Assembly: GCA_007376485.1 (NCBI GenBank)
Contig: VMGJ01000003.1
Location: 17,252 to 81,251, forward strand
Origin: Parcubacteria group bacterium Licking1014_17
Lineage (GTDB): Bacteria; Patescibacteriota; Minisyncoccia; 2-02-FULL-40-12; IGHO2-01-FULL-4-A
DNA length: 64,000 bases
Reading direction: 5' to 3'
The position numbers and the translations under genes are program-made. The first letter of the stretch is position 1. Each line of letters opens with the position of its first letter. Below, piece after piece: positions 11,334 to 64,000 of this stretch. The notes under the pieces are model-generated. The model did not search any database and had not been told where the DNA came from. It saw only the letters and a program-made list of their open reading frames with translations.

Positions 11334-13062
11334 CGTCGCCGTTAATGACGACAGTTTTATTATCGCCGGTAATTTTTTTAAGCGTGTCGACGAGCGTTGA
11401 CTTGCCCACGCCTGAGTCTCCAGCTATTGCGATAAGAAAACGCTCTCTGGTCTTTTGAAAAATCTGGTTGCTTTGCATTCCCATCTTATAGGACCAAGCT
11501 AGTAGGACGGCCACGGAAATTTCTAGAGCTGTGAAAAAAATATTTTCCACGATAAATCCTTTGTTCCCGAGAATTTCAAACAAAGTTAGACCGCGCAGAA
11601 ATGAAGGTACCACTGATCTCAAGCTTTCAAATACATCTGAATTTTTCGTGAATGAGAAGAAAAGAATGAAAAAAACATTTACTACGGCAAAACTTATGAT
11701 CGGCGCTTTTTTAAATTTAATAATAAAGAAAACTAAAAACGGAAGCGCCCAGTAATACCATCCGGGCATGGGAGGAACCAGCACAATAAGCGCAGTATAG
11801 GTCAAACCAATGGCTAATATAAGTGAGTCTGAATTTAATTTCTTATAAGAGCCAAATTTGTATATTATCAGAAGAATTGCAGCTGGAACGACAAATAGCG
11901 TTACGTCTCTAAAATAGAAGGGTATAGCCAGAGAAAATATCCTTTGCTGTTCCGGATTATTGAAAACCATGTTTAAAAATCCACCTGAAAGTAAATATGG
12001 ATTCAAAGCCACAAAAGTTAGAAATGAAGCTACCAAATATGATGCCATTTTGGAAAAGCGAACCCCGTTCCGGTAGAGATAGATCAGGTAAAATGGCAAA
12101 GCAGCAATGACGTGTGTTTTTGCCGCAATGCCCAAGCCAAGAATAATAAAAGATAGCAGCTGTTTTTTTCGCACCAAAAAAATTATGGAGAGCATGAGAA
12201 GCGCCGTCGGTATGACGTCTAGTTGGCCATGGAAGTAGTTTATGAAAAATAAAATCGGCGAAGCATAATAAATCCACAAAATCTTTTTTCCATGGGTCGG
12301 AAGCAACGAGCACAAAGATAAGTAGATCAAAACATCAAAAACTAAAATGGGAACCCTCAAAAGAAAAAGCTCCAAATTCAGATTATTGAGCCAGTCAAAT
12401 GGCAATAATTGTTTAGCTGCAATTAGCGGCAATCCCTCAAAAATAAGCATGCCTGAAGGATATGGAAATGGCGTCACAGACAAGGCGTTGAAATATTCGT
12501 ATGGGTTTTTAAAGGTGGCCGCAAAATAATTAATGAAAGGTATAAACCCATTTATTATATAGTGCGAGCCAAATAAAGTTCCGCTAATCAACTTGATTGC
12601 GGAAATAATCCAAAAAGAAATACCAAGATAAGGAACAAATTTCAAAACCCTATCTCGGGATGCATGATTAAAAATCAGATATTTGAGCCCGAAGAAATTA
12701 CTCAAGGTGGAAAAGCAAATTCCGAAAATATTGGCTATAAGAGGGTGCAGTCCGAATTTGACAAGCACACCCAAAACAACAACACTTAGGACCAGGGATG
12801 AAATATAAACTCCTGTATAAAGAATTAATTCAGTGGCTCTGCGTTTAATTACGGGCTGAAATGTCCATCTTCTATTGAGTAGGTATCCAAAAACTAAGCC
12901 ACTGACATATCCGACAACCGTAGCCAAATAGTAATTGACAGAAAAAATTTGAAGGAGCAAAAAAAATAGCCCGTAATTAATAACAGTGCTTAAAGATCCA
13001 ACAACAATAAACCTAGTAAATTGATTGTTTTTTAAACGCATAAACGTCCCAATCGGGCTCAT
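11266..13062 (-). CDS. N-terminal part of a frameshifted gene: GtrA-like domain + large polytopic membrane domain + Walker-A region of a PRK/uridine-kinase-family kinase
   Basis: The N-terminus (FIVVGSLSTVINYGLFFLL...RRWTF) is GtrA-like. About 12 TM helices follow. The C-terminal IAIAGDSGVGKST is a near-exact match to the phosphoribulokinase/uridine kinase P-loop. The ORF stops at 11266. Confidence 0.6.
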   Translation of the reverse strand: MSPIGTFMRLKNNQFTRFIVVGSLSTVINYGLFFLLLQIFSVNYYLATVVGYVSGLVFGYLLNRRWTFQPVIKRRATELILYTGVYISSLVLSVVVLGVLVKFGLHPLIANIFGICFSTLSNFFGLKYLIFNHASRDRVLKFVPYLGISFWIISAIKLISGTLFGSHYIINGFIPFINYFAATFKNPYEYFNALSVTPFPYPSGMLIFEGLPLIAAKQLLPFDWLNNLNLELFLLRVPILVFDVLIYLSLCSLLPTHGKKILWIYYASPILFFINYFHGQLDVIPTALLMLSIIFLVRKKQLLSFIILGLGIAAKTHVIAALPFYLIYLYRNGVRFSKMASYLVASFLTFVALNPYLLSGGFLNMVFNNPEQQRIFSLAIPFYFRDVTLFVVPAAILLIIYKFGSYKKLNSDSLILAIGLTYTALIVLVPPMPGWYYWALPFLVFFIIKFKKAPIISFAVVNVFFILFFSFTKNSDVFESLRSVVPSFLRGLTLFEILGNKGFIVENIFFTALEISVAVLLAWSYKMGMQSNQIFQKTRERFLIAIAGDSGVGKSTLVDTLKKITGDNKTVVINGDDVHRWERSDPHWQDITHLDPQG

Positions 13063-51317: not shown

Positions 51318-51959
51318 CGCCAGCAGGATTTATAATCCTGATGCCGACAAGAGATTAATCCCTAACGCCTTTACGGGTTCTCTCTGTTATGTTCAGTTGC
51401 AAACCCGGAGTCTGGCCGCGTTATCGCTGGAAGCTGTTTTAATAGTTTTTATATTGCAGCTGCCAGTCTTGCCCCGACCGCTTAAGACTCTTATTTGGGA
51501 ACCTTATAAATTAACTCCTGGCATTCCAAACAACATTCATCAGATTTTAAGCCATTTTCTAGCCAGCCTCGAATATCGGTTTTTAGCCCATATCCGGGGC
51601 AGACTAGTAAAAAACTCACCTCTTTTAGGCTACTAAAAACAATCCAATAATCGCGTAAATTATAGATTTTTTCATCTTTTTACCCGTTTGCTCTTGCAGA
51701 TAATATCAAAACTCTTCCGCGCAGTCAACCAAAAAGACACGACTGTCCGCGGCTAATATTATCATTTACCTAACTACAAACAGTGACGTGTAAGGGTTTC
51801 AAACCTTACACCACACATACTATATTGGCCCCGAAACTGCTATTTATTATAACAACTAACAAATAGCTTTAAAATACTTTCAAGCCCAAAATTGTGGATA
51901 ATTGCAAATAATCACATAATCGAGGCACTGCTAATGACGTCGGGGTACCCGTAAAGATA

Positions 51960-52096
51960 GCGACATAAATGACAAAATTACTATGTCATAGTGACAAAAA
52001 CATTTATGTCACGATATATGACACAGTGACACAATTAGATTGCGACATAAATGACAAATTGACGTGTCACTATGACATAATTGTCATTTATGTCGC
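51960..52096. promoter_or_regulatory. dense array of TGTCA/GCGACA-type repeats (3 copies of a 16-17-bp unit plus three TGTCA-Nx-TGACA palindromes)
   Basis: GCGACATAAATGACAA at 51960-51975 and 52042-52057, and its reverse complement at 52081-52096. TGTCAtagTGACA at 51985-51997. TGTCAcgatataTGACA at 52006-52022. TGTCActaTGACA at 52065-52077. Confidence 0.55.
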
Positions 52097-52608
52097 TATA
52101 GGTTGTCTATCTTCCATATTTTGTCACCTTTGACAAATATGATATTGACGCTTATATCGGAAGAAACTTTATATATGTAAGTGGCGCTCTTGTCGTCCTC
52201 CTTTTTTAAGAGCCACCCGGCTCTCGCCTTTTCAAATTCTGCTATAAGTTTATCCGTTATCCCCTTGTCTTCGCTGGCTATAAACGTTTTTTCCCAGCTT
52301 TCCTGCTTGGATGTCACAAAATAACGGCTCGCAAGTTTAAAATCCTTGCTCTTCAAAGCATCCATAAATAGGTCATAAGTTTCCTCCGGCGTAGCGCCAC
52401 CGATGATATCACCGCTGGCAATAATCGGTTCAGAACCATTTTCTCCCGCGGTTTTATCGCCCTGTATTTTTTTCAATATTCCGGAGAAGTTCAACATACC
52501 CAAAATTGCCGATAGAGCAACGACTCCAAAAATAATGGTGATTATCCAATTTTTACGGAAAAACCCATTGCTCCTTCTGGAGTCGCCAGATATTGCCGGG
52601 TTGTTCAT
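52096..52608 (-). CDS. small membrane-anchored protein (N-terminal TM + ~130-aa extracytoplasmic domain), unknown function
   Basis: 170-aa ORF. Hydrophobic helix WIITIIFGVVALSAILGML. Shares an operon with the upstream regulator gene. Confidence 0.5.
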   Translation of the reverse strand: MNNPAISGDSRRSNGFFRKNWIITIIFGVVALSAILGMLNFSGILKKIQGDKTAGENGSEPIIASGDIIGGATPEETYDLFMDALKSKDFKLASRYFVTSKQESWEKTFIASEDKGITDKLIAEFEKARAGWLLKKEDDKSATYIYKVSSDISVNIIFVKGDKIWKIDNL

Positions 52609-55749: not shown

Positions 55750-57675
55750 TTGAAGTCAATAGTAAACAAAAAATCAGCATCTTTGCTGAAAATTATCTTA
55801 AAAAATCCTTATGAAAATTTTTCTTTTCTGCTTCTACAAAATATGGTTCGAGCCGATGTTTTTAACGGGTTCTTTTGCGGTTTTGATTCGTGCGGCTCCG
55901 CCGCCTTTCCGGATTTTCGCGGGGGGACTTCCTCGCCGCCGCAGGCGGCGAAAGCGGTTCGGACTAATTCAAGTATCCTGCACCACGTTGGAAAAGTCAA
56001 TGCCTCGCCCCGCCTTCGGCGGGTCTCGGCGACCAAATCGTACGGATTTTTCGGGGTAAAAAGAAATTCCCGATTCCGGATTGAAGCTCAACTTGTTGAG
56101 CTCAAAGAATTTGCCGCCAAAGAAAAACTTGAAATTGTCGCTTCCTTTCAGGAAGCCAAAACCGCAAAAGAACCCGGGCGAATTAAATTCGCAGAAATGT
56201 TGTCATTGATTGAGAGAGGGAAAGCAGACGGGATAATTTCATGGCATCCGGATCGTCTCGCAAGAAATTCTGTGGATGGCGGAAAGATTATTCACTTTGT
56301 TGATCGCGGCTTGATTCGTTCCCTCAAATTTCCCTGCTTCTGGTTTGAACCGACACCACAAGGATTATTCATGCTGAACATTGCTTTCGGACAAAGCAAG
56401 TATTTTGTAGACAATTTGCGAGAGAATGTAAAAAGAGGTTTGCGGCAGAAAATCAGAAATGGAGTATGGCCAAGTTGGGCTCCAATTGGCTACACTAACA
56501 ACCCCAAAACGCGCGGTATTGATATTGATAGCGACAAAGCCCCTAAGGTAAAGAAATTGTTTGAAATGTATGCCACCGGAGAATACTCTCTCAACATCCT
56601 CGCAAATTGGTGTGAGAAAAAGAAACTGCTCACTAACGCCGGAAACAAAATATCATTAAGCAATGTTCAGCATATTCTCCAAAACCCTTTCTACATTGGG
56701 TTGATGAGATACAAAGGGGAAATTTTTGAGGGAACACACGAACCGTTAATCTCAAAGAAACTTTTTGATAAATGTCAGGAAGTTATGGTAAAGCGTGGGA
56801 AAGTGAGGCCAGACAGGAAACACTATTTTGCTTTTCTTGGCCTGATGAAATGCGCCTCGTGTGGTTGTTCAATTACGGCTCAATACGCAAAAGGAAATGG
56901 TGGTATTTACACTTACTATCGGTGTACAAAAAAGCGAGGCAAGTGCCAAGAAAAGTATCTTGATGAAAAACAGCTTTTAACACAAATTAAAAACTTCCTG
57001 CAAAAAGTTTCTTTGTCGAGCCAAGACACCGAGAAAGTTTTGGCGGCATTAGGCACAGAAGAAACACAAGCGAAACAACAAGCACAAAGTGAGGCGGTAA
57101 ATCTAAAAGAGCAGTTAGCTCAAATTGAAACAAAGCTCCAGAAATTGCTGGACGTATATCTCGATGATGCACTTACTCAAAAAGAATACGCCACCAAAAA
57201 AGATGTCCTCATTTCCCAAAAGGTCGAGTTAAACGAAAAAATCACCGACTTTGAGCAAAAAGGGGTGTCTTGGCTCGAACCGGCTCGTGAGTTTGTAAAA
57301 TCCTTGAATCAAGCCGCTAATTTACTTGAATCAGAAAATCTTTCCGAAATGACAACATTTCTGAAAAACATCGGCTCGAACCATATTTTACGGAATCGGG
57401 AATTTCTTTTTACCCCGAAAAATCCGTACGATTTGGTCGCCGAGACCCGCCGAAGGCGGGGCGAGGCATTGACTTTTCCAACGTGGTGGTCGTGTTCTGC
57501 CATTGAACCACACCCGCGTTGCCAAGGGGGTTTCGGCGAAACTTCGCCGAAACCCCCTTGGCTGAATTTTTATTTTTTATTTATCCAGTCGGTAACGGAC
57601 TGCCAGAATTTACCCCATGCGTCCGGTTGCCCGGCGCTTTTTTCAATCACGCTCGTTTCTTTATTTTTTGAGTAA
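55750..57675 (+). CDS. large serine recombinase (resolvase/invertase-type catalytic domain + recombinase domain + zinc ribbon + coiled coil). True start and stop are uncertain because the ORF runs through repeats S, R1', R2 and R2'
   Basis: WHPDRLARN (the catalytic DRLxR of serine recombinases), GTHEPLISKKLF, the zinc ribbon CASCGCSITAQY...YYRCTKKRGKC and the coiled-coil C-terminus all match large serine recombinases (A118/Bxb1/TnpX-like). The first in-frame ATG/GTG/TTG before the catalytic region is at 55843 (inside S) or 55750. There is no canonical start just upstream of the putative catalytic Ser (KRNS at aa 104-107 or RVS at aa 91-93). Confidence 0.75.
   Translation: MKSIVNKKSASLLKIILKNPYENFSFLLLQNMVRADVFNGFFCGFDSCGSAAFPDFRGGTSSPPQAAKAVRTNSSILHHVGKVNASPRLRRVSATKSYGFFGVKRNSRFRIEAQLVELKEFAAKEKLEIVASFQEAKTAKEPGRIKFAEMLSLIERGKADGIISWHPDRLARNSVDGGKIIHFVDRGLIRSLKFPCFWFEPTPQGLFMLNIAFGQSKYFVDNLRENVKRGLRQKIRNGVWPSWAPIGYTNNPKTRGIDIDSDKAPKVKKLFEMYATGEYSLNILANWCEKKKLLTNAGNKISLSNVQHILQNPFYIGLMRYKGEIFEGTHEPLISKKLFDKCQEVMVKRGKVRPDRKHYFAFLGLMKCASCGCSITAQYAKGNGGIYTYYRCTKKRGKCQEKYLDEKQLLTQIKNFLQKVSLSSQDTEKVLAALGTEETQAKQQAQSEAVNLKEQLAQIETKLQKLLDVYLDDALTQKEYATKKDVLISQKVELNEKITDFEQKGVSWLEPAREFVKSLNQAANLLESENLSEMTTFLKNIGSNHILRNREFLFTPKNPYDLVAETRRRRGEALTFPTWWSCSAIEPHPRCQGGFGETSPKPPWLNFYFLFIQSVTDCQNLPHASGCPALFSITLVSLFFE
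55838..55863. repeat. 26-bp repeat S (AAAATATGGTTCGAGCCGATGTTTTT); inverted copy at 57364-57389
   Basis: Exact reverse-complement match. The left copy lies 27 bp outside R1'. The right copy abuts R2'. Confidence 0.75.
55891..55982. repeat. inverted repeat R1' (partner of 54810-54901), abutting R2
   Basis: See R1. The R1/R1' pair brackets the nucleotidyltransferase gene. Confidence 0.8.
55982..56079. repeat. inverted repeat R2, 98 bp; perfect inverted partner at 57391-57488
   Basis: The reverse complement of 57391-57488 is identical to 55982-56079 over the full 98 bp. The R2/R2' pair brackets the serine-recombinase core, and both copies lie inside the recombinase reading frame. Confidence 0.85.
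57364..57389. repeat. repeat S' (inverted copy of 55838-55863)
   Basis: Exact match in reverse complement. Confidence 0.75.
57391..57488. repeat. inverted repeat R2' (perfect partner of 55982-56079)
   Basis: See R2. Confidence 0.85.
57521..57583 (+). terminator. strong rho-independent terminator 3' of the recombinase gene
   Basis: 20-bp perfect stem GCCAAGGGGGTTTCGGCGAA-ac-TTCGCCGAAACCCCCTTGGC followed by TGAATTTTTATTTTTTATTT. Confidence 0.8.
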
Positions 57676-60414: not shown

Positions 60415-62892
60415 TTACTTGAATTCCACCGAGAATTGGCGGTCGGTTTCGAGGTCTGACGAGGAGAAGGCGATGGTTTCTTTTACGCGCATCAAGGGAT
60501 CGTTTGAAGTGATAATTTTGTCGTCTGGCGCTTCTATTGAATAATTAATTTTATCTTTGTTCGTGCCCGGCTGTTTTTGCCACAAAAGATTGTAATTCGC
60601 GTTCTTCATCGCGAGAGCTAAGGGTACTTTGTAGGTAATCCTGACGCCTTGCGTGTTTTTCGGCAGGATATTCATCCAGAAGCCGAAAACGGTCTTGCCG
60701 GATTCTTCAAACACGTCCGCGCCGTAAATCGGCTGGCTGATGGTGGCTTCAAGCGCCGCCAGGTCTGGATCAACGGTAAAATTCTTGCCCGCATATTTAA
60801 CCAGTGGCTTGATGGAAACAATGGATTCGCCCTCGATATTTTCCAAGGTACTGCCTCTGGGCACGTAAACTCTCACGTAAGAGCTGTTCTCCGTATTGTA
60901 AAATTTATGATTTTTGTCGCCGCCGTTATGCTGGCGGTAAATAGAGAGCATATGGAGGGCGTTGTTACCGACGATACTAACGTCAAGTTTCATGGAATTT
61001 TCCGTCACCGCGTCCGCCTTTGAGCCCTTTATATTCGTAAAATTAACCTGCAGATAATCGCCGCCCGAATCGGCAATCGCTCCCGCCGCCCCCAGTTTTT
61101 CGACTGCTTTTTGCAGAGAAGCGTCTTTGAAATAGGCAAGGGCGTGTTTTTCTTGAACGTCCCCGATTATCGCCGTCATTAAATCACGCCACTGTTCCTT
61201 GCCCTGCCCGGCGAATTTTTCAAAAAGTTTCGGCTGTAAATCTTTCAATATCTGTTTGGGTCTGTCCCTGTTGCCCTTGTTTTCAACGACATCCTGGACT
61301 TCGGCGACAAAATTATCAGTCGTGAGGGTCAAATTGTAATCGGGCATTTCAATCGGGCCGGTAATTTTCAGGATATCGGTAATCAATTTGGGAGTAATCG
61401 CGAAAACGCCGCTGACTTTCTGCCCGTCTTCCTTTTCAAAATATTCGGCGAATTTTTTGGCGGAAGCGGAGAAATCAGCGAACCAGCCGACATCGCGCAT
61501 CGCCCATGTCTGGGTTATGCCCTGAAGCTGTTTCGGCGGGATAATTTTTTCTTTCATTTGCCCGTCCGGATTGTAAATATCGTCAACCTTGACGAAAGCC
61601 AGATAGCCCTTGTCGAACGTCAGCAGAGCGTAGCTTCCGGGAAATCCGCCCGTAGGCCTTAGTTCGCTGTTATTCTGCATAAGCATCAAATACGTAACGG
61701 GACCTCTTTCGCCCAAAAAATTCAAAGCCAAATTGGAATAATCAACGGCGTTATTTATATATGAAGAAAATTCAGGAAGCTTGTCTTTGAAACCAATAAA
61801 AGTTTCTCTTTCGCTTTCCGGAATAATTGACGCGCTGACGCCCGCCAGCAGGTCTTTGGCGTTTTCTATATCAACCGCCGCCTCCGCGAGGGAATTTTTC
61901 AGGTCATTGATGAATTTCACCGGCGGATTGGCACTCGACGTTTCCGGAGAAGTCATTATCTTCAGCAGATTTGTCGTGTATAAGACATCCAGCGACTGGG
62001 ATAAAATCTTTCCGGCTTCGGACAGGTTTTTACCCGCTTCCATAAGATTTCTCGCCGAAACGACTTTATCAACGCCGGGAATAGCGCTAAGCGAACTTAT
62101 AATACTGGCTCCGAACATATTCATCGTTCGCGACGCCGATTCAAGCTCCGACTCCGCTTTGGCGAAATTATCGGCGGCGGCTTTGAAATCAAAAGCGGCG
62201 AGATTTTCTTTCGCCTGGCTAAAACTATTCATCGCGCTCAAACCTTTGCCGACGATGCCATGAATGGCTCTCGTCGCTCCGAAGTAGCCGAGACAGCCGA
62301 TTAGTACCAGCGATGCCGCGATTGGCACTAATATTTTCAACCTGTATCTCAAAGCGCTCCTGTCTTTGGGAATCAAAACAGCCGGATGATTATCCACGAA
62401 AGTTTTTGTCTCTCTTTTTCTTTGCAAAAGTTTTCCCAGACGCGCCATTGACGGTTTAAACCACGCGAGGCATGGTTCGTACTCGGGTTCGGGTAATATT
62501 GTGCGACGTGAGGGGAATGTGGCGACGGCTTCTGGTATAGCTGGCGCGACTGCCGCCAAAGAAGCAACGGTTGCGATTCTCTCTCTGGCTTTCTGCCTTC
62601 CCGTTAGTTCCTTATCCGTGACCGCTTTTCCAATCCGCACCGCTCCCCCGTATTTTATTAATTCCGACAAATCGGCTGTCGGCTCGTTAATCAATTGGCA
62701 AAATTCTTCCGAAACCATCTGCTTCATAGCGTGCTTGCTGGCGTGCGAAACTCCCGGCTTAACAGCGCCTTTGTATTTATTATTTGTCTTATCTTCTCTC
62801 TTCTCCGGCTTAGTTGCCTCAATCTCCTGTTCTTTCACATACGAAGCCAAAACCACCATCGGTTCGCCAGTGGGTATAATATCGAACATCAT
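60415..62892 (-). CDS. large membrane-anchored protein (single TM ~aa 185-205 counted from the MMFD start, large extracytoplasmic domain), unknown function. The ORF is open to 63075, but the first 61 codons overlap a highly structured element, so the start at 62892 is preferred
   Basis: 886-aa ORF. The N-terminal 61 codons (MSTIERSECLDKGWQPNQ...CGFCCI) have non-protein-like composition and coincide with nested perfect palindromes. MMFDIIPTGEP is the next start. 57 bp upstream of lepA on the same strand. Confidence 0.5.
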   Translation of the reverse strand: MMFDIIPTGEPMVVLASYVKEQEIEATKPEKREDKTNNKYKGAVKPGVSHASKHAMKQMVSEEFCQLINEPTADLSELIKYGGAVRIGKAVTDKELTGRQKARERIATVASLAAVAPAIPEAVATFPSRRTILPEPEYEPCLAWFKPSMARLGKLLQRKRETKTFVDNHPAVLIPKDRSALRYRLKILVPIAASLVLIGCLGYFGATRAIHGIVGKGLSAMNSFSQAKENLAAFDFKAAADNFAKAESELESASRTMNMFGASIISSLSAIPGVDKVVSARNLMEAGKNLSEAGKILSQSLDVLYTTNLLKIMTSPETSSANPPVKFINDLKNSLAEAAVDIENAKDLLAGVSASIIPESERETFIGFKDKLPEFSSYINNAVDYSNLALNFLGERGPVTYLMLMQNNSELRPTGGFPGSYALLTFDKGYLAFVKVDDIYNPDGQMKEKIIPPKQLQGITQTWAMRDVGWFADFSASAKKFAEYFEKEDGQKVSGVFAITPKLITDILKITGPIEMPDYNLTLTTDNFVAEVQDVVENKGNRDRPKQILKDLQPKLFEKFAGQGKEQWRDLMTAIIGDVQEKHALAYFKDASLQKAVEKLGAAGAIADSGGDYLQVNFTNIKGSKADAVTENSMKLDVSIVGNNALHMLSIYRQHNGGDKNHKFYNTENSSYVRVYVPRGSTLENIEGESIVSIKPLVKYAGKNFTVDPDLAALEATISQPIYGADVFEESGKTVFGFWMNILPKNTQGVRITYKVPLALAMKNANYNLLWQKQPGTNKDKINYSIEAPDDKIITSNDPLMRVKETIAFSSSDLETDRQFSVEFK

Positions 62893-62939
62893 TATATCGC
62901 TCTCGAATTTTTCTTCCACTGGATTAATTATACAACAAA

Positions 62940-63116
62940 ATCCACAAAGCACTTGTGGATGAAAGGGCGTTCGCCGATATGCTTTTTCGGGACTGGATTT
63001 TCTCCAGCGAAGAAAATCCATCTGGTTAGGTTGCCACCCCTTGTCAAGACATTCGCTTCGCTCAATCGTTGACAAGACCCTGCTGGCGGCAACCTAAGCA
63101 GCCCGAAAAAGCATAT
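62940..63116 (-). promoter_or_regulatory. highly structured 5' leader: a three-way-junction fold (15-bp outer stem enclosing two hairpins), followed on the transcribed strand by an 8-bp hairpin plus a U-tract (candidate attenuator or riboswitch-like element)
   Basis: Outer stem ATATGCTTTTTCGGG (62977-62991) / CCCGAAAAAGCATAT (63102-63116). Inner hairpins GGATTTTC/GAAAATCC and TTAGGTTGCC/GGCAACCTAA, the latter with an inner CTTGTCAA/TTGACAAG stem. Terminator-like ATCCACAA-agcac-TTGTGGAT (62940-62960) is followed by UUUUGUUGU on the minus-strand RNA. Confidence 0.45.
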
Positions 63117-63175
63117 TGGCTCACTTACTGTTTTATTTGTTACCAAAATCTCCGCTATTGTTTCGAATTGAGATA

Positions 63176-63216
63176 ATTTATAAAAAGAAAAGGGCTGGAG
63201 TTTTTAATTCCAGCCC
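63176..63216 (-). terminator. rho-independent terminator of the 63237..63713 gene
   Basis: Minus strand: GGGCTGGA-attaaaaac-TCCAGCCC followed by TTTTCTTTTTAT. Confidence 0.65.
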
Positions 63217-63236: not shown

Positions 63237-63713
63237 TTACTTATGGGAGAGAATTATGCAGCCGGGACCTAAGCCTGCGTAGCGAGGGTGCACGATGGAA
63301 ATGGCACGGACGCGCCACCAACGGTGAAGCAAGCCCCAGCGCGCATGTACAGCCCAAGGAATTCCTCTTCTGTCCTCGATATACGCAAGTAATCCTCCCC
63401 AGCCTTTGGGCTGGATCTTGACAAATTCATAGAAGTGGGCAAGTTTTATGATACGCTTTTCGGGACTCAGCTCGTCCATGATTTCGTAACTAAGGGAAGG
63501 TCGAGTTATACTGCCGAGTATTATCTCCGCTGGTCCGATATCTTCCTCAATAAGATCCAGGAAATTTTCCTCGAAATTGTTTTCGAGAGAAAATTTAATT
63601 CCGTCTGAGTTTCTAGGCCCGAAAGTGTCTTTGGCGACAAAACGTTTACAACCGGGGATTTTAATATCTACCACGATAATTCTCCTCTCAAGAGTGGTCA
63701 TAGAAAGCCACAA
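63237..63713 (-). CDS. hypothetical protein
   Basis: 158-aa ORF with a proper terminator. No recognisable motifs. Confidence 0.4.
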   Translation of the reverse strand: MWLSMTTLERRIIVVDIKIPGCKRFVAKDTFGPRNSDGIKFSLENNFEENFLDLIEEDIGPAEIILGSITRPSLSYEIMDELSPEKRIIKLAHFYEFVKIQPKGWGGLLAYIEDRRGIPWAVHARWGLLHRWWRVRAISIVHPRYAGLGPGCIILSHK

Positions 63714-63902: not shown

Positions 63903-63936
63903 AGCCAGCCCCCACCGGCGCGCCGGTGGGGGCTGG
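63903..63936. repeat. 34-bp perfect G+C-rich palindrome GCCAGCCCCCACCGGCG|CGCCGGTGGGGGCTGGC, tip of a longer imperfect rod
   Basis: Direct reading. The flanking GCGG/CCGC and CCGAG/CUCGG pairs extend the helix. The window ends at 64000. Confidence 0.5.
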
Positions 63937-64000
63937 CGAGGGAATGCTCGGAAGGTATTCCGCGTATGTGAACGACGAATATTTGCCAAAATCGAAGCTC

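What the first reader, a model, noticed from the sequence alone, without database searches (positions are those of the whole stretch)
62940..63116. Nested perfect palindromes form a three-way-junction structure plus terminator-like hairpin in the 5' region of the large gene upstream of lepA
On the minus-strand RNA, a 15-bp perfect outer stem encloses a long hairpin (10-bp stem with an inner 8-bp stem) and a second 8-bp hairpin. These are followed by a GGCG-aa-CGCC mini-hairpin and an 8-bp hairpin (AUCCACAA/UUGUGGAU) that leads into UUUUGUUGU, then AUGAUG (the preferred start, 62892). Topologically this is an aptamer domain followed by an intrinsic terminator, the layout of transcription-attenuating riboswitches or leader attenuators. 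The all-Watson-Crick, mismatch-free stems are more regular than typical riboswitches. They could also indicate a young palindromic insertion (MITE-like) or a protein-binding DNA site. The ORF call that starts at 63075 would translate straight through this structure into an implausible peptide.
Basis: seen in the sequence. Interest (0 to 1): 0.55.

Follow-up and report, generated by a model that had tools for sequence, protein, structure and literature searches.

The report
New three-way-junction RNA element family
The nested palindromes are real, but they are not a riboswitch for the next gene: they are one copy of an undescribed family of about 160-base folded elements, probably RNAs, found at gene ends in Parcubacteria, with a shape that evolution has kept.

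Summary
Minus strand 63124-62969 folds into a 19-23 bp basal stem and a three-way junction with a long and a short arm (-79.9 kcal/mol; z = -6.5). It is non-coding: homologues of the DUF4012 protein start at MFDI (ATG 62892).

The riboswitch/attenuator reading is not supported. A promoter-like motif conserved upstream of orthologous DUF4012 genes (ATCCACA, about 21 nt, TATAAT, 40-42 nt before the ATG) lies between the element and the ATG. In 76 of 80 DUF4012 loci no copy lies within 3 kb of the gene.

The element belongs to a family absent from Rfam 15. A second copy (88% identity) lies 2.2 kb away, and about 30 distinct relatives occur in other Parcubacteria (Paceibacteria) contigs. Neighbours are unrelated housekeeping genes (lepA, PBP2, greA, lysS, alaS, ileS, dnaE, mreB). 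A copy usually abuts the stop codon of a convergent gene.

The fold is kept by compensatory changes: 33 of 45 pairs on a structure-naive alignment, 94% of cells paired against 36-46% in slid controls. The bulge GCAUGG and the loop CGCUGG are nearly invariant. G.U excess and purine-rich loops favour this strand.

Function is unknown. My best guess is a discrete structured RNA recognised by a trans-acting factor.

The parts
62969..63124 (-). Whole structured element (156 nt): basal stem, three-way junction and two arms. This is the window's copy of the family (subfamily B).
   Evidence: RNAfold gives -79.9 kcal/mol with the described fold. Covariance-model hit of 149-154 bits. z = -6.5 for the wider region.
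63102..63124 (-). 5' strand of the basal stem: GU (closing helix), GA (purine loop), GCC, A (A.C mismatch), then AUAUGCUUUUUCGGG.
   Evidence: Inverted repeat I1, 19 nt at 95%. Perfect 15-mer. Extension seen in every family member.
62969..62991 (-). 3' strand of the basal stem: CCCGAAAAAGCAUAU, C, GGC, GA, AC.
   Evidence: The family-wide GCC-GNA-GC 3' strand pairs with a 5' GC-GNA-GGC strand.
63022..63101 (-). Long arm (hairpin 1): CUG/CAG, then a 13-bp stem with a conserved G.U, the 7-nt bulge AGCAGGG (63084-63078; family consensus (A)GCAUGG), the inner stem CUUGUCAA/UUGACAAG, and the apical module CGAUUGAGC-GAA-GCGAAUGUC.
   Evidence: (I2, I13). 12-14 of its pairs covary in the family. GCA.GG is invariant in 28 sequences.
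62994..63020 (-). Short arm (hairpin 2): a 10-bp stem with loop UCGCUGG (63010-63004). The loop C.CUGG is invariant in the family.
   Evidence: I4. The stem sequence is replaced with compensation in relatives, for example AAAACC/GGUUUU, CUUUUC/GAAAAG and CCGAGC/GCGAGG.
62940..62960 (-). Hairpin AUCCACAA-GUGCU-UUGUGGAU followed by UUUGUUGUA (62939-62931). It may end a transcript of the element. Its 5' arm is the conserved ATCCACA box of the DUF4012 promoter region.
   Evidence: I12; terminator-like, but 1 found against 1.6 expected. The ATCCACA box is conserved in orthologues that have no hairpin partner.
62927..62960 (-). Likely promoter region of the DUF4012 gene: ATCCACA (62960-62954), 21 nt, TATAAT (62932-62927), 34 nt before the ATG.
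   Evidence: The same motif at the same distance occurs in about 25 of 36 orthologous loci. It is the only TCCACA-N18-24-TATAAT in the 64-kb window.
60415..62892 (-). DUF4012 protein gene (825 aa from ATG 62892), followed by lepA (60357-58555).
   Evidence: Pfam PF13196, E = 6e-29; lepA domains. N-terminus fixed by the homologue alignment.
63182..63216 (-). Intrinsic terminator of the upstream 145-aa gene (GGGCUGGAAUUAAAAACUCCAGCCC plus UUUUCUUUUU). A 57-nt spacer separates it from the element.
   Evidence: I6; sequence read.
63237..63674 (-). Upstream gene (145 aa, no Pfam match).

Best explanation
The palindromes are one copy of a conserved, previously undescribed family of structured elements of Parcubacteria/Paceibacteria. 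I read it as an RNA.

Architecture (shown):
- The 5' and 3' ends pair into a basal stem of about 20-25 bp. The stem carries a purine-rich GNA/GNA internal loop near its base.
- The stem opens into a three-way junction.
- The long arm has an asymmetric 7-nt bulge, (A)GCAUGG.
- The short arm has the loop (U)CGCUGG.

Also shown:
- The fold is maintained by compensatory substitutions, while the bulge, the loop and the junction nucleotides stay nearly invariant.
- The element is dispersed in a few copies per contig at the ends of unrelated housekeeping genes.
- It lies upstream of, not inside, the DUF4012 transcription unit.
- The minus strand of the window is the selected strand.

Inferred: it is transcribed as a discrete RNA of about 160-200 nt. 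In the window this would run from the 57-nt spacer after the upstream terminator to the hairpin and U-run at 62960-62931. The RNA would act through recognition of its conserved single-stranded bulge, loop and junction by a trans-acting factor, most likely a protein. The long covarying helices would serve as a rigid scaffold.

It does not sense a ligand to control DUF4012 or lepA.
For: Family and homology:
- A second copy at 88% identity lies 2.2 kb away in the same genome (L001:7580-7744).
- There is a homologue upstream of DUF4012 in L070.
- The covariance model finds L017, L013 and L010 (37-65 bits).
- All 28 metagenome pattern hits are full-length matches of 61-129 bits.

Structure:
- On the MAFFT alignment, made without structure information, 94.4% of cells pair against 36-46% for slid controls.
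- 33 of 45 pairs change on both sides.
- The covariation score is 0.476 against 0.171 for shuffles (0 of 500 reach it).
- The model-made alignment gives 39 of 49 pairs changed on both sides.
- Copies at the orthologous PBP2 site (L093 and L102) differ by several double substitutions.

Constraint: the element is 84-96% identical where flanks are 47-76% identical, or unrelated.

Strand:
- G.U + U.G = 76 against A.C + C.A = 16.
- The tandem G.A and GNA/GNA loops are purine-rich only on this strand.
- The reverse strand scores 15-26 bits against 90-164.

Context:
- Neighbours are unrelated housekeeping genes.
- There is usually 70 nt or more of non-coding DNA on the 5' side, while the 3' end can overlap a convergent stop codon (-18 to +40 nt).
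- No copy lies between divergent genes.
- The window copy sits between a terminator and the conserved DUF4012 promoter motif and is followed by a hairpin and U-run.
Against: - No sigma-70-like promoter is found at a fixed distance upstream of family members or in the window's 57-nt spacer.
- A U-tract after the basal stem is present in only about 60% of members. Where a convergent gene abuts, it partly coincides with C-terminal Lys codons.
- No expression data and no partner protein are known.
- G.T wobbles and tandem G.A pairs are also stable in single-stranded DNA, so a DNA-level role is not excluded.
- Copies tend to come in nearby pairs (window, L093, L102, L104). A plain small-RNA gene does not predict that.
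Confidence: 0.5

Rival explanations
1. It is a cis-acting transcript-boundary module. The element, on one or both strands, would form the 3' end of neighbouring transcripts as a terminator, a roadblock or a protective 3' structure. This is how REP/BIME elements work in enterobacteria. The conserved loops would bind an RNase or a nucleoid protein.
For: - About two thirds of copies abut the stop codon of a convergent gene that has no other recognisable terminator: lepA, PBP2, ileS, greA, lysS, alaS, Bac_transf and the 463-aa gene of L104.
- In L093 the element stands where L102 has a canonical greA terminator.
- No copy lies between divergent genes.
- No dedicated promoter was found.
Against: - In the direction of the convergent gene the stem is rarely followed by a U-run. 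It is strong only in L010.
- On that strand the conserved purine loops become pyrimidine loops and the G.U pairs become A.C mismatches.
- Terminators do not need invariant bulge and loop sequences.
- Where the element is co-directional, the upstream gene already has its own terminator (window 63216-63182; L083, L096).
Confidence: 0.2
2. It is a selfish, DNA-level mobile palindromic repeat (MITE, REP or PATE-like). The hairpins would be kept because a transposase or recombinase recognises the folded single-stranded DNA.
For: - Several copies occur per genome or contig in unrelated intergenic sites: the window genome, L093, L102, L104 and Ga0315280_10000295.
- Presence differs between related loci: 76 of 80 DUF4012 loci lack it near the gene, and the greA-lysS spacer is filled in L093 but empty in L102.
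- 89% identical copies occur with unrelated flanks (L082 against L098).
- G.T and G.A pairs also fold in DNA.
Against: - The termini are the least conserved part and covary instead of keeping a transposase-binding sequence.
- No target-site duplication is visible.
- Copies in one genome are diverged (88% in the window genome; subfamilies A and C side by side in L093) rather than near-identical.
- Orthologous copies are inherited vertically with compensatory change.
- There is no orientation bias relative to co-directional genes (about 9 sense against 9 antisense).
- No transposase was seen in the flanks.
- There are no matches in phage, plasmid or viral collections.
Confidence: 0.17
3. It is a transcription-attenuating riboswitch or leader attenuator of the DUF4012-lepA operon.
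For: In the window, a three-way junction is followed by a hairpin and a U-run ahead of the ATG. L070 also has a copy upstream of DUF4012.
Against: - The conserved promoter motif lies downstream of the junction and overlaps the 'terminator'.
- 76 of 80 orthologous loci lack the element near the gene.
- Most members are convergent to their neighbours and next to unrelated genes.
- The second copy in the same genome faces the 3' end of a gene.
- Rfam gives nothing.
Confidence: 0.03
4. It is a new self-cleaving or otherwise catalytic RNA. Like twister or hammerhead, such RNAs occur in several copies in varied contexts.
For: - The fold is ornate, with about 19 invariant and 27 nearly invariant nucleotides concentrated at the junction, the bulge and the loop.
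- Subfamily A has 'CGGAUGAG-stem-CGAA-GUC', which resembles the hammerhead core around stem II.
- The contexts are varied and there are several copies per contig.
Against: - The hammerhead core is not met. U4 is G, and C3-G5 are base-paired with covariation (CCG/CGG becomes CUG/CAG). There is no A15.1-U16.1 pair, and position 17 would be a paired G.
- The window's own subfamily replaces the G.A tandem with Watson-Crick pairs.
- No Rfam ribozyme model matches.
Confidence: 0.05

Closest known systems
REP/BIME, ERIC and the Bacillus cereus bcr1 repeats (interspersed structured intergenic repeats; from my own knowledge of the literature)
   Same: Palindromic elements of about 100-200 nt that occur in several copies, sit in intergenic regions at gene ends, and are predicted to fold as RNA hairpins.
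   Different: - The copy number here is low: 1 in the 64-kb window plus 1 just outside it.
- The fold is a branched three-way junction with invariant bulge and loop sequences.
- The termini covary instead of being conserved, and no target duplication is seen.
- Orthologous copies persist with compensatory change.
Orphan structured non-coding RNA motifs found by comparative genomics (the Weinberg/Breaker-type candidates in Rfam)
   Same: A conserved secondary structure supported by covariation, conserved unpaired nucleotides, no known function, and a narrow taxonomic range.
   Different: It matches none of the 4227 Rfam 15 families, even at E <= 1-10. It is multi-copy and has no fixed gene association.
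phi29-type packaging RNA (pRNA) (resemblance in architecture only; from my own knowledge)
   Same: A long helix formed by the 5' and 3' ends, a three-way junction, a bulge on one arm and a hairpin loop on the other. In subfamilies A and B these two are partly complementary (CCAGC against GCUGG).
   Different: - There is no phage context and no viral, phage or plasmid match.
- Rfam's pRNA family is not matched.
- The bulge-loop complementarity is not kept in subfamily C or in L013.
Hammerhead ribozyme, type III
   Same: In subfamily A the order of the helices and the local sequence 'AUGA-G...C-GAA' around the short arm match the hammerhead stem II with its tandem G.A pairs.
   Different: Core positions C3-U4-G5, A15.1-U16.1 and H17 are not met. 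The window copy lacks the G.A tandem. No Rfam hammerhead model hits.
Riboswitch with an intrinsic-terminator expression platform
   Same: In the window, a three-way-junction fold is followed by a hairpin and a U-run upstream of an ORF.
   Different: It lies upstream of the conserved promoter motif. It is not linked to any gene family. Most copies are convergent to their neighbours.

Membership tests
Riboswitch / leader attenuator | Lies in the 5' UTR, between the promoter and the regulated ORF. | tested here: not met
   The conserved ATCCACA-N21-TATAAT motif shared with about 25 of 36 orthologues lies downstream of the junction, at 62960-62927. Experimental mapping of the transcription start is still lacking.
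Riboswitch / leader attenuator | Conserved association with one gene family or pathway, upstream and co-directional. | tested here: not met
   Neighbours are lepA, PBP2, greA, lysS, alaS, ileS, dnaE, mreB and glycosyltransferases. 25 of 35 downstream neighbours are convergent. 76 of 80 DUF4012 loci lack it within 3 kb of the gene.
Riboswitch / leader attenuator | Matches a described aptamer class. | tested here: not met
   Rfam 15: no hit at the gathering threshold in the window, and none at E <= 10 on the element or E <= 1 on 8 member loci.
MITE / REP-like mobile palindromic repeat | Several dispersed intergenic copies per genome. | tested here: met
   Two copies in the window genome. Two each in L093, L102, L104 and contig Ga0315280_10000295. 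The density is low: none elsewhere in the 64 kb with filters off.
MITE / REP-like mobile palindromic repeat | Terminal inverted repeats conserved in sequence, flanked by target-site duplications. | tested here: not met
   The basal-stem columns are the most variable and covary (for example GC:17 CG:5 AU:3). No flanking direct repeats were seen by eye.
MITE / REP-like mobile palindromic repeat | Near-identical copies within a genome, and a cognate transposase. | tested here: inconclusive
   Copies are 88% identical in the window genome. Two different subfamilies lie 600 bp apart in L093. No transposase is in the fetched flanks, but whole genomes could not be scanned.
Hammerhead ribozyme | Core of CUGANGA, GAA, the A15.1-U16.1 pair and an unpaired H17 around three helices. 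| tested here: not met
   Subfamily A has CGGAUGA...GAA-GU. CGG is paired with CCG, with covariation to CUG/CAG. Position 17 would be G. Subfamily B lacks the G.A tandem. There are no Rfam hammerhead hits.
Integron attC site | R''/R' boxes (RYYYAAC...GTTRRRY), cassette arrays, and a nearby integron integrase. | tested here: not met
   No such boxes at the ends. Flanking genes are core housekeeping genes, and no integrase is in the flanks.
Intrinsic terminator (hairpin 62960-62940) | A G+C-rich hairpin directly followed by a U-run at the end of a transcription unit. | tested here: inconclusive
   It matches the consensus scan (9 pairs, 3 G-C, tail TTTGTTGTAT), but the scan found 1 site against 1.6 expected by chance. 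Its 5' arm is a conserved promoter-region box, and orthologues lack the 3' arm.
Housekeeping small RNAs (5S, SRP, 6S, RNase P, tmRNA) | Match to the family's covariance model; usually one copy per genome. | tested here: not met
   No Rfam match. ARAGORN finds no tmRNA. Several copies per contig.
New structured RNA family (this report) | Secondary structure conserved through compensatory substitutions across independent lineages. | tested here: met
   33-39 pairs change on both sides; 88-94% of cells are paired against 36-51% in slid controls; 0 of 500 shuffles reach the observed value.
New structured RNA family (this report) | Transcribed as RNA from the strand that carries the fold. | not testable with these tools
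   Only indirect evidence: G.U to A.C = 76:16 and purine-rich loops on this strand. No promoter was found.

The most novel reading that the evidence does not exclude
The element is a new class of complex-folded functional RNA specific to the Candidate Phyla Radiation. It could be a self-processing (catalytic) RNA, or the RNA subunit or decoy of an unknown ribonucleoprotein. Its invariant GCAUGG bulge, CGCUGG loop and k-junction-like three-way junction would form the active or recognition site. Several diverged paralogues per genome would be kept by selection.
Probability: 0.15. Interest if true: 0.85.

Novelty: new variant of a known kind. Interest (0 to 1): 0.6.

Why it matters
Patescibacteria (the Candidate Phyla Radiation) are a large, mostly uncultured part of bacterial diversity. 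They have tiny genomes, and almost nothing is known about their non-coding RNAs.

A branched element of about 160 nt that such reduced genomes keep in several copies is unlikely to be junk. It has dozens of compensatory base-pair changes and about 19 invariant unpaired or junction nucleotides. It is not in Rfam.

It offers three things:
- A defined covariance model for annotating these genomes.
- A correction to the public annotation of the DUF4012 gene, whose start is placed inside the fold.
- A concrete candidate for finding a new RNA-protein or RNA-processing system.

If it turns out to be only a REP-like repeat, it would still be the first such family characterised in this group.

Tried and rejected
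- **Rfam.** I searched the whole window at the gathering threshold, the region at E <= 10, and 8 member loci at E <= 1. Only chance hits appeared (snR32, a terminator fragment of HrrF, leader peptides elsewhere).
- **Other copies in the window.** I looked by pattern and by covariance model with filters off. There are none. The inverted repeat at 12836-12989 lies inside an ORF and is only 82% complementary, so I took it as chance.
- **Phage or plasmid origin.** Two viral contigs pattern scans and blastn against the phage and plasmid collections gave nothing.
- **Retron, DGR or reverse-transcriptase association.** The downstream gene is DUF4012, not a reverse transcriptase. The DGR (bAvd + RT) is 6-9 kb away and is absent from the other member loci examined.
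- **Hammerhead, pRNA, 5S, SRP, 6S, attC, bridge RNA and omega RNA.** All were rejected on defining features (see the membership tests).
- **Type I toxin or small ORF.** AUG-containing frames on either strand are not conserved. Window copy 1 has AGCAGGG, with no AUG.
- **Bulge-loop kissing (CCAGC with GCUGG).** The complementarity is not maintained in subfamily C or in L013, so it is unsupported.
- **Dedicated sigma-70 promoter.** No -10 box with at least 5 of 6 matches lies at a consistent distance.
- **Intrinsic terminator in either direction.** The U-tracts are inconsistent.
- **tRNA linkage.** None.
- **Outward extension of pairing by plain MFE folding.** This gave spurious long-range pairs. 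A greedy helix-extension script replaced it.
- **Literature.** Three full-text searches found no description of such an element.
Full report
**1.

On the minus strand, ATATGCTTTTTCGGG (63116-63102) pairs perfectly with CCCGAAAAAGCATAT (62991-62977). This stem encloses two arms.
- The long arm is 63101-63022. It has a 13-bp stem with one G.U, a 7-nt bulge AGCAGGG, and the inner 8-bp stem CUUGUCAA/UUGACAAG.
- The short arm is 63020-62994. It has 10 bp and the loop UCGCUGG.

RNAfold of 62880-63140 gives -96.2 kcal/mol against -64.8 +/- 4.8 for 200 dinucleotide-preserving shuffles (z = -6.5). The 156-nt unit 63124-62969 alone folds at -79.9 kcal/mol. The hairpin AUCCACAA/UUGUGGAU (62960-62940) with its U-run is also there. 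As a single consensus match it is not above chance: 1 found against 1.6 expected.

**2. The structure is non-coding.**

The downstream ORF is a DUF4012 protein (PF13196, E = 6e-29), followed by lepA. Twenty-one homologues align from 'MFDIKP', and F3, D4 and P7 of the ATG-62892 product are at least 90% conserved. Both the TTG-63075 ORF and the public annotation run through the fold. That annotation is P0001, 868 aa, from 'Parcubacteria group bacterium Licking1014_17'. Its start is ATG 63021, which is the junction A plus the first two bases of the short arm.

**3. The element is not unique.**

- A public contig of the same genome (L001) extends beyond the window. It carries a second copy, 88% identical over 127 nt, about 2.2 kb away and in inverted orientation (L001:7580-7744). 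This copy abuts the stop codon of a sugar-transferase gene.
- Among 80 DUF4012 loci from other species, one (L070, a Yanofskybacteria genome) has a homologue directly upstream of its DUF4012 gene.
- A covariance model built from these three sequences found three more copies just after lepA on the opposite strand, in L017, L013 and L010 (37-65 bits).
- One metagenome scan with a pattern taken from the conserved parts returned 28 loci. All are full-length matches (61-129 bits), and L093 and L102 each carry a second copy.
- A second model built from 31 members added one more diverged copy (L104:6276-6425). It found none elsewhere in the window, even with filters off.

I distinguish four subfamilies: A (the majority), B (the two window-genome copies), C (L010 and L093:4419-4573) and a diverged copy D in L104.

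**4. Selection maintains the fold.**

- On a MAFFT alignment made without any structure information, RNAalifold recovers the same architecture.
- On that alignment 94.4% of cells are standard pairs, against 36-46% when the partners are slid by 1-3 columns.
- 33 of 45 pairs change on both sides.
- The covariation score is 0.476 against 0.171 for shuffles, and 0 of 500 shuffles reach it.
- The model-made alignment gives 39 of 49 pairs changed on both sides.
- The stem of the short arm is replaced outright: AAAACC/GGUUUU, CUUUUC/GAAAAG, CCGAGC/GCGAGG, and GGAUUUUC/GAAAAUCC in the window. Its loop C.CUGG never changes.
- Copies at the orthologous site after PBP2 in L093 and L102 differ by several double substitutions.
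- In related pairs the element is 84-96% identical where flanks are 47-76% identical or unrelated.

**5. Family anatomy corrects one detail.**

A symmetric purine loop (GNA/GNA) and a 2-4 bp G-C closing helix follow. In the window this reads 5' GU-GA-GCC-A-AUAUGC... paired with 3' ...GCAUAU-C-GGC-GA-AC.

Nineteen positions are invariant in 28 sequences. They are concentrated in the bulge GCA.GGU, the loop C.CUGG and the junction. Subfamily A has tandem G.A pairs at the base of the short arm (UGAG/CGAA). With the third helix on the non-bulged strand, this has the topology of a k-junction. That identification rests on my own knowledge and was not tested. Some members carry a further 70-80 nt of pairing on each side, making a longer rod. 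The window copy does not.

**6. Which strand carries the fold.**

On the strand as drawn, G.U + U.G = 76 against A.C + C.A = 16. The counts are not phylogenetically independent. The conserved non-Watson-Crick motifs are purine-rich on this strand and would be pyrimidine loops on the other. The models score the reverse strand at 15-26 bits against 90-164. This points to a single-stranded nucleic acid of this polarity. RNA is the simplest reading, but folded single-stranded DNA is not excluded.

**7. The context rules out a gene-specific leader.**

- Neighbours are unrelated core genes: lepA, PBP2, greA, lysS, alaS, ileS, dnaE, mreB, an M23 peptidase and glycosyltransferases.
- In 25 of 35 cases the gene on the 3' side is convergent. 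Its stop codon lies -18 to +40 nt from the element.
- Within co-directional gene pairs the element is sense about as often as antisense (about 9 each).
- No copy lies between divergent genes.
- The 5' side usually has 70 nt or more of non-coding DNA.
- 76 of 80 DUF4012 loci have no copy within 3 kb of the gene.

Most telling is the region upstream of the DUF4012 ATG. About 25 of 36 orthologous loci have a conserved '(A)TCCACA, about 21 nt, TATAAT', with the TATAAT 40-42 nt before the ATG. The window has it at 62960-62954 and 62932-62927, and it is the only such motif in the 64 kb. Three things follow.
- The junction lies upstream of the probable DUF4012 promoter.
- The 5' arm of the 'terminator' is the conserved ATCCACA box.
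- The orthologues have no 3' arm.

The window layout is therefore, in order:
- the 145-aa gene;
- its terminator (63216-63182);
- a 57-nt spacer;
- the element (63124-62969);
- the promoter region (62960-62927);
- the ATG (62892).

**8. What it is not.**

- It matches no Rfam 15 family.
- It has no phage, plasmid or viral match.
- It is not linked to tRNA genes.
- It is not a hammerhead. The CGG is paired and covaries, and there is no A15.1-U16.1 pair or H17.
- It is not an attC site: there are no R boxes, no integrase, and the neighbours are housekeeping genes.
- It is not a classical MITE. The ends covary rather than being conserved, there is no target duplication, and copies within a genome are diverged.
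- It is not a consistent intrinsic terminator in either direction.
- It has no recognisable sigma-70 promoter of its own.

**9. The most likely mechanism.**

Shown: this is a conserved, strand-specific, branched fold with invariant unpaired nucleotides. It is dispersed at gene ends and is independent of DUF4012 regulation.

Inferred: it is made as a discrete RNA of about 160-200 nt. In the window, that RNA would end at the 62960-62931 hairpin and U-run, which overlaps the next promoter. It would work by presenting its bulge, loop and junction to a trans-acting factor, with the long helices acting as scaffold. I put this at about 0.5.

Rivals:
- a cis-acting transcript-boundary module, like REP/BIME (about 0.2);
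- a mobile element that acts as folded DNA (about 0.17);
- a new ribozyme (about 0.05);
- the original riboswitch reading (about 0.03).

The lack of a promoter and the tendency of copies to occur in nearby pairs (window, L093, L102, L104) are not explained by my preferred reading.

**10. Limits.**

- The source genome has no close relative in the collections. The best DUF4012 homologue is only 41-46% identical.
The single metagenome scan used a pattern specific to subfamily A. The sample is therefore biased towards subfamily A, and copy numbers per genome are rough.
- No expression data were available.

Noticed in passing
window 55933-57562 (L001:15505-17233): A large serine recombinase gene (about 55980-57455, + strand) is flanked by inverted repeats of about 90-100 bp (55977-56078 against 57390-57488). 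Next to it is a 20-bp perfect palindrome (57521-57562). The other public assembly of this genome (L001) has a tRNA-Gly(CCC) at its 3' end. The window lacks 39 nt there (at 57488), so no tRNA is detected in the window. The ENA contig ends inside this region. This suggests an invertible or integrated element at tRNA-Gly, or an assembly variant.
   Followed up: partly
window 51957-52099: A second set of nested perfect palindromes: 19-nt and 15-nt arms at 100% complementarity, with TGACA/TGTCA 'GACATAAATGACAA'-type repeats. It is intergenic, lying before the ORF at 52096-52608 (minus strand). It looks like iterons or an operator array and is unrelated in sequence to the finding.
   Followed up: no
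window 63904-63937: A G+C-rich perfect palindrome of 17 + 17 bp with no loop (GCCAGCCCCCACCGGCG/CGCCGGTGGGGGCTGGC). It lies after the glycosyltransferase gene and is probably that gene's terminator.
   Followed up: no
L001:374-1753 (about 7-8.6 kb beyond the window's 64000 end): A diversity-generating retroelement core: a bAvd accessory gene and a reverse transcriptase. GIY-YIG and RNase H genes are nearby. No link to the element was found.
   Followed up: no
window 62927-62960, and upstream of DUF4012 genes in L002-L070: A gene-specific conserved upstream motif, '(A)TCCACA, about 21 nt, (G)TATAAT(TA)'. Most orthologues also have a conserved 5'-UTR hairpin 'uGCCnaaG...CuuuuGGCa' that ends at the ATG. 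The window's own 5' UTR lacks that hairpin.
   Followed up: partly
L013, L108, L109, L097, L095, L088, L103 (30-85 nt outside the core element): Several family members have an extra conserved outer motif, 'GAGCGA(N)CCC...', with a complementary 3' partner. This extends the rod to about 300 nt. The family may be modular or mosaic.
   Followed up: partly
window 63019-63021 and 63073-63075: The public protein record (868 aa) starts at an ATG inside the three-way junction, and the longest ORF starts at TTG 63075. Both N-terminal extensions are unsupported by homologues, so the annotation should start at 62892.
   Followed up: yes
L093:4574-4900 against L102:1494-1550: Between greA and lysS, L102 has only a canonical terminator and a promoter. 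L093 has a subfamily-C element plus a small ORF of about 60 aa with its own promoter-like and terminator-like sites.
   Followed up: partly
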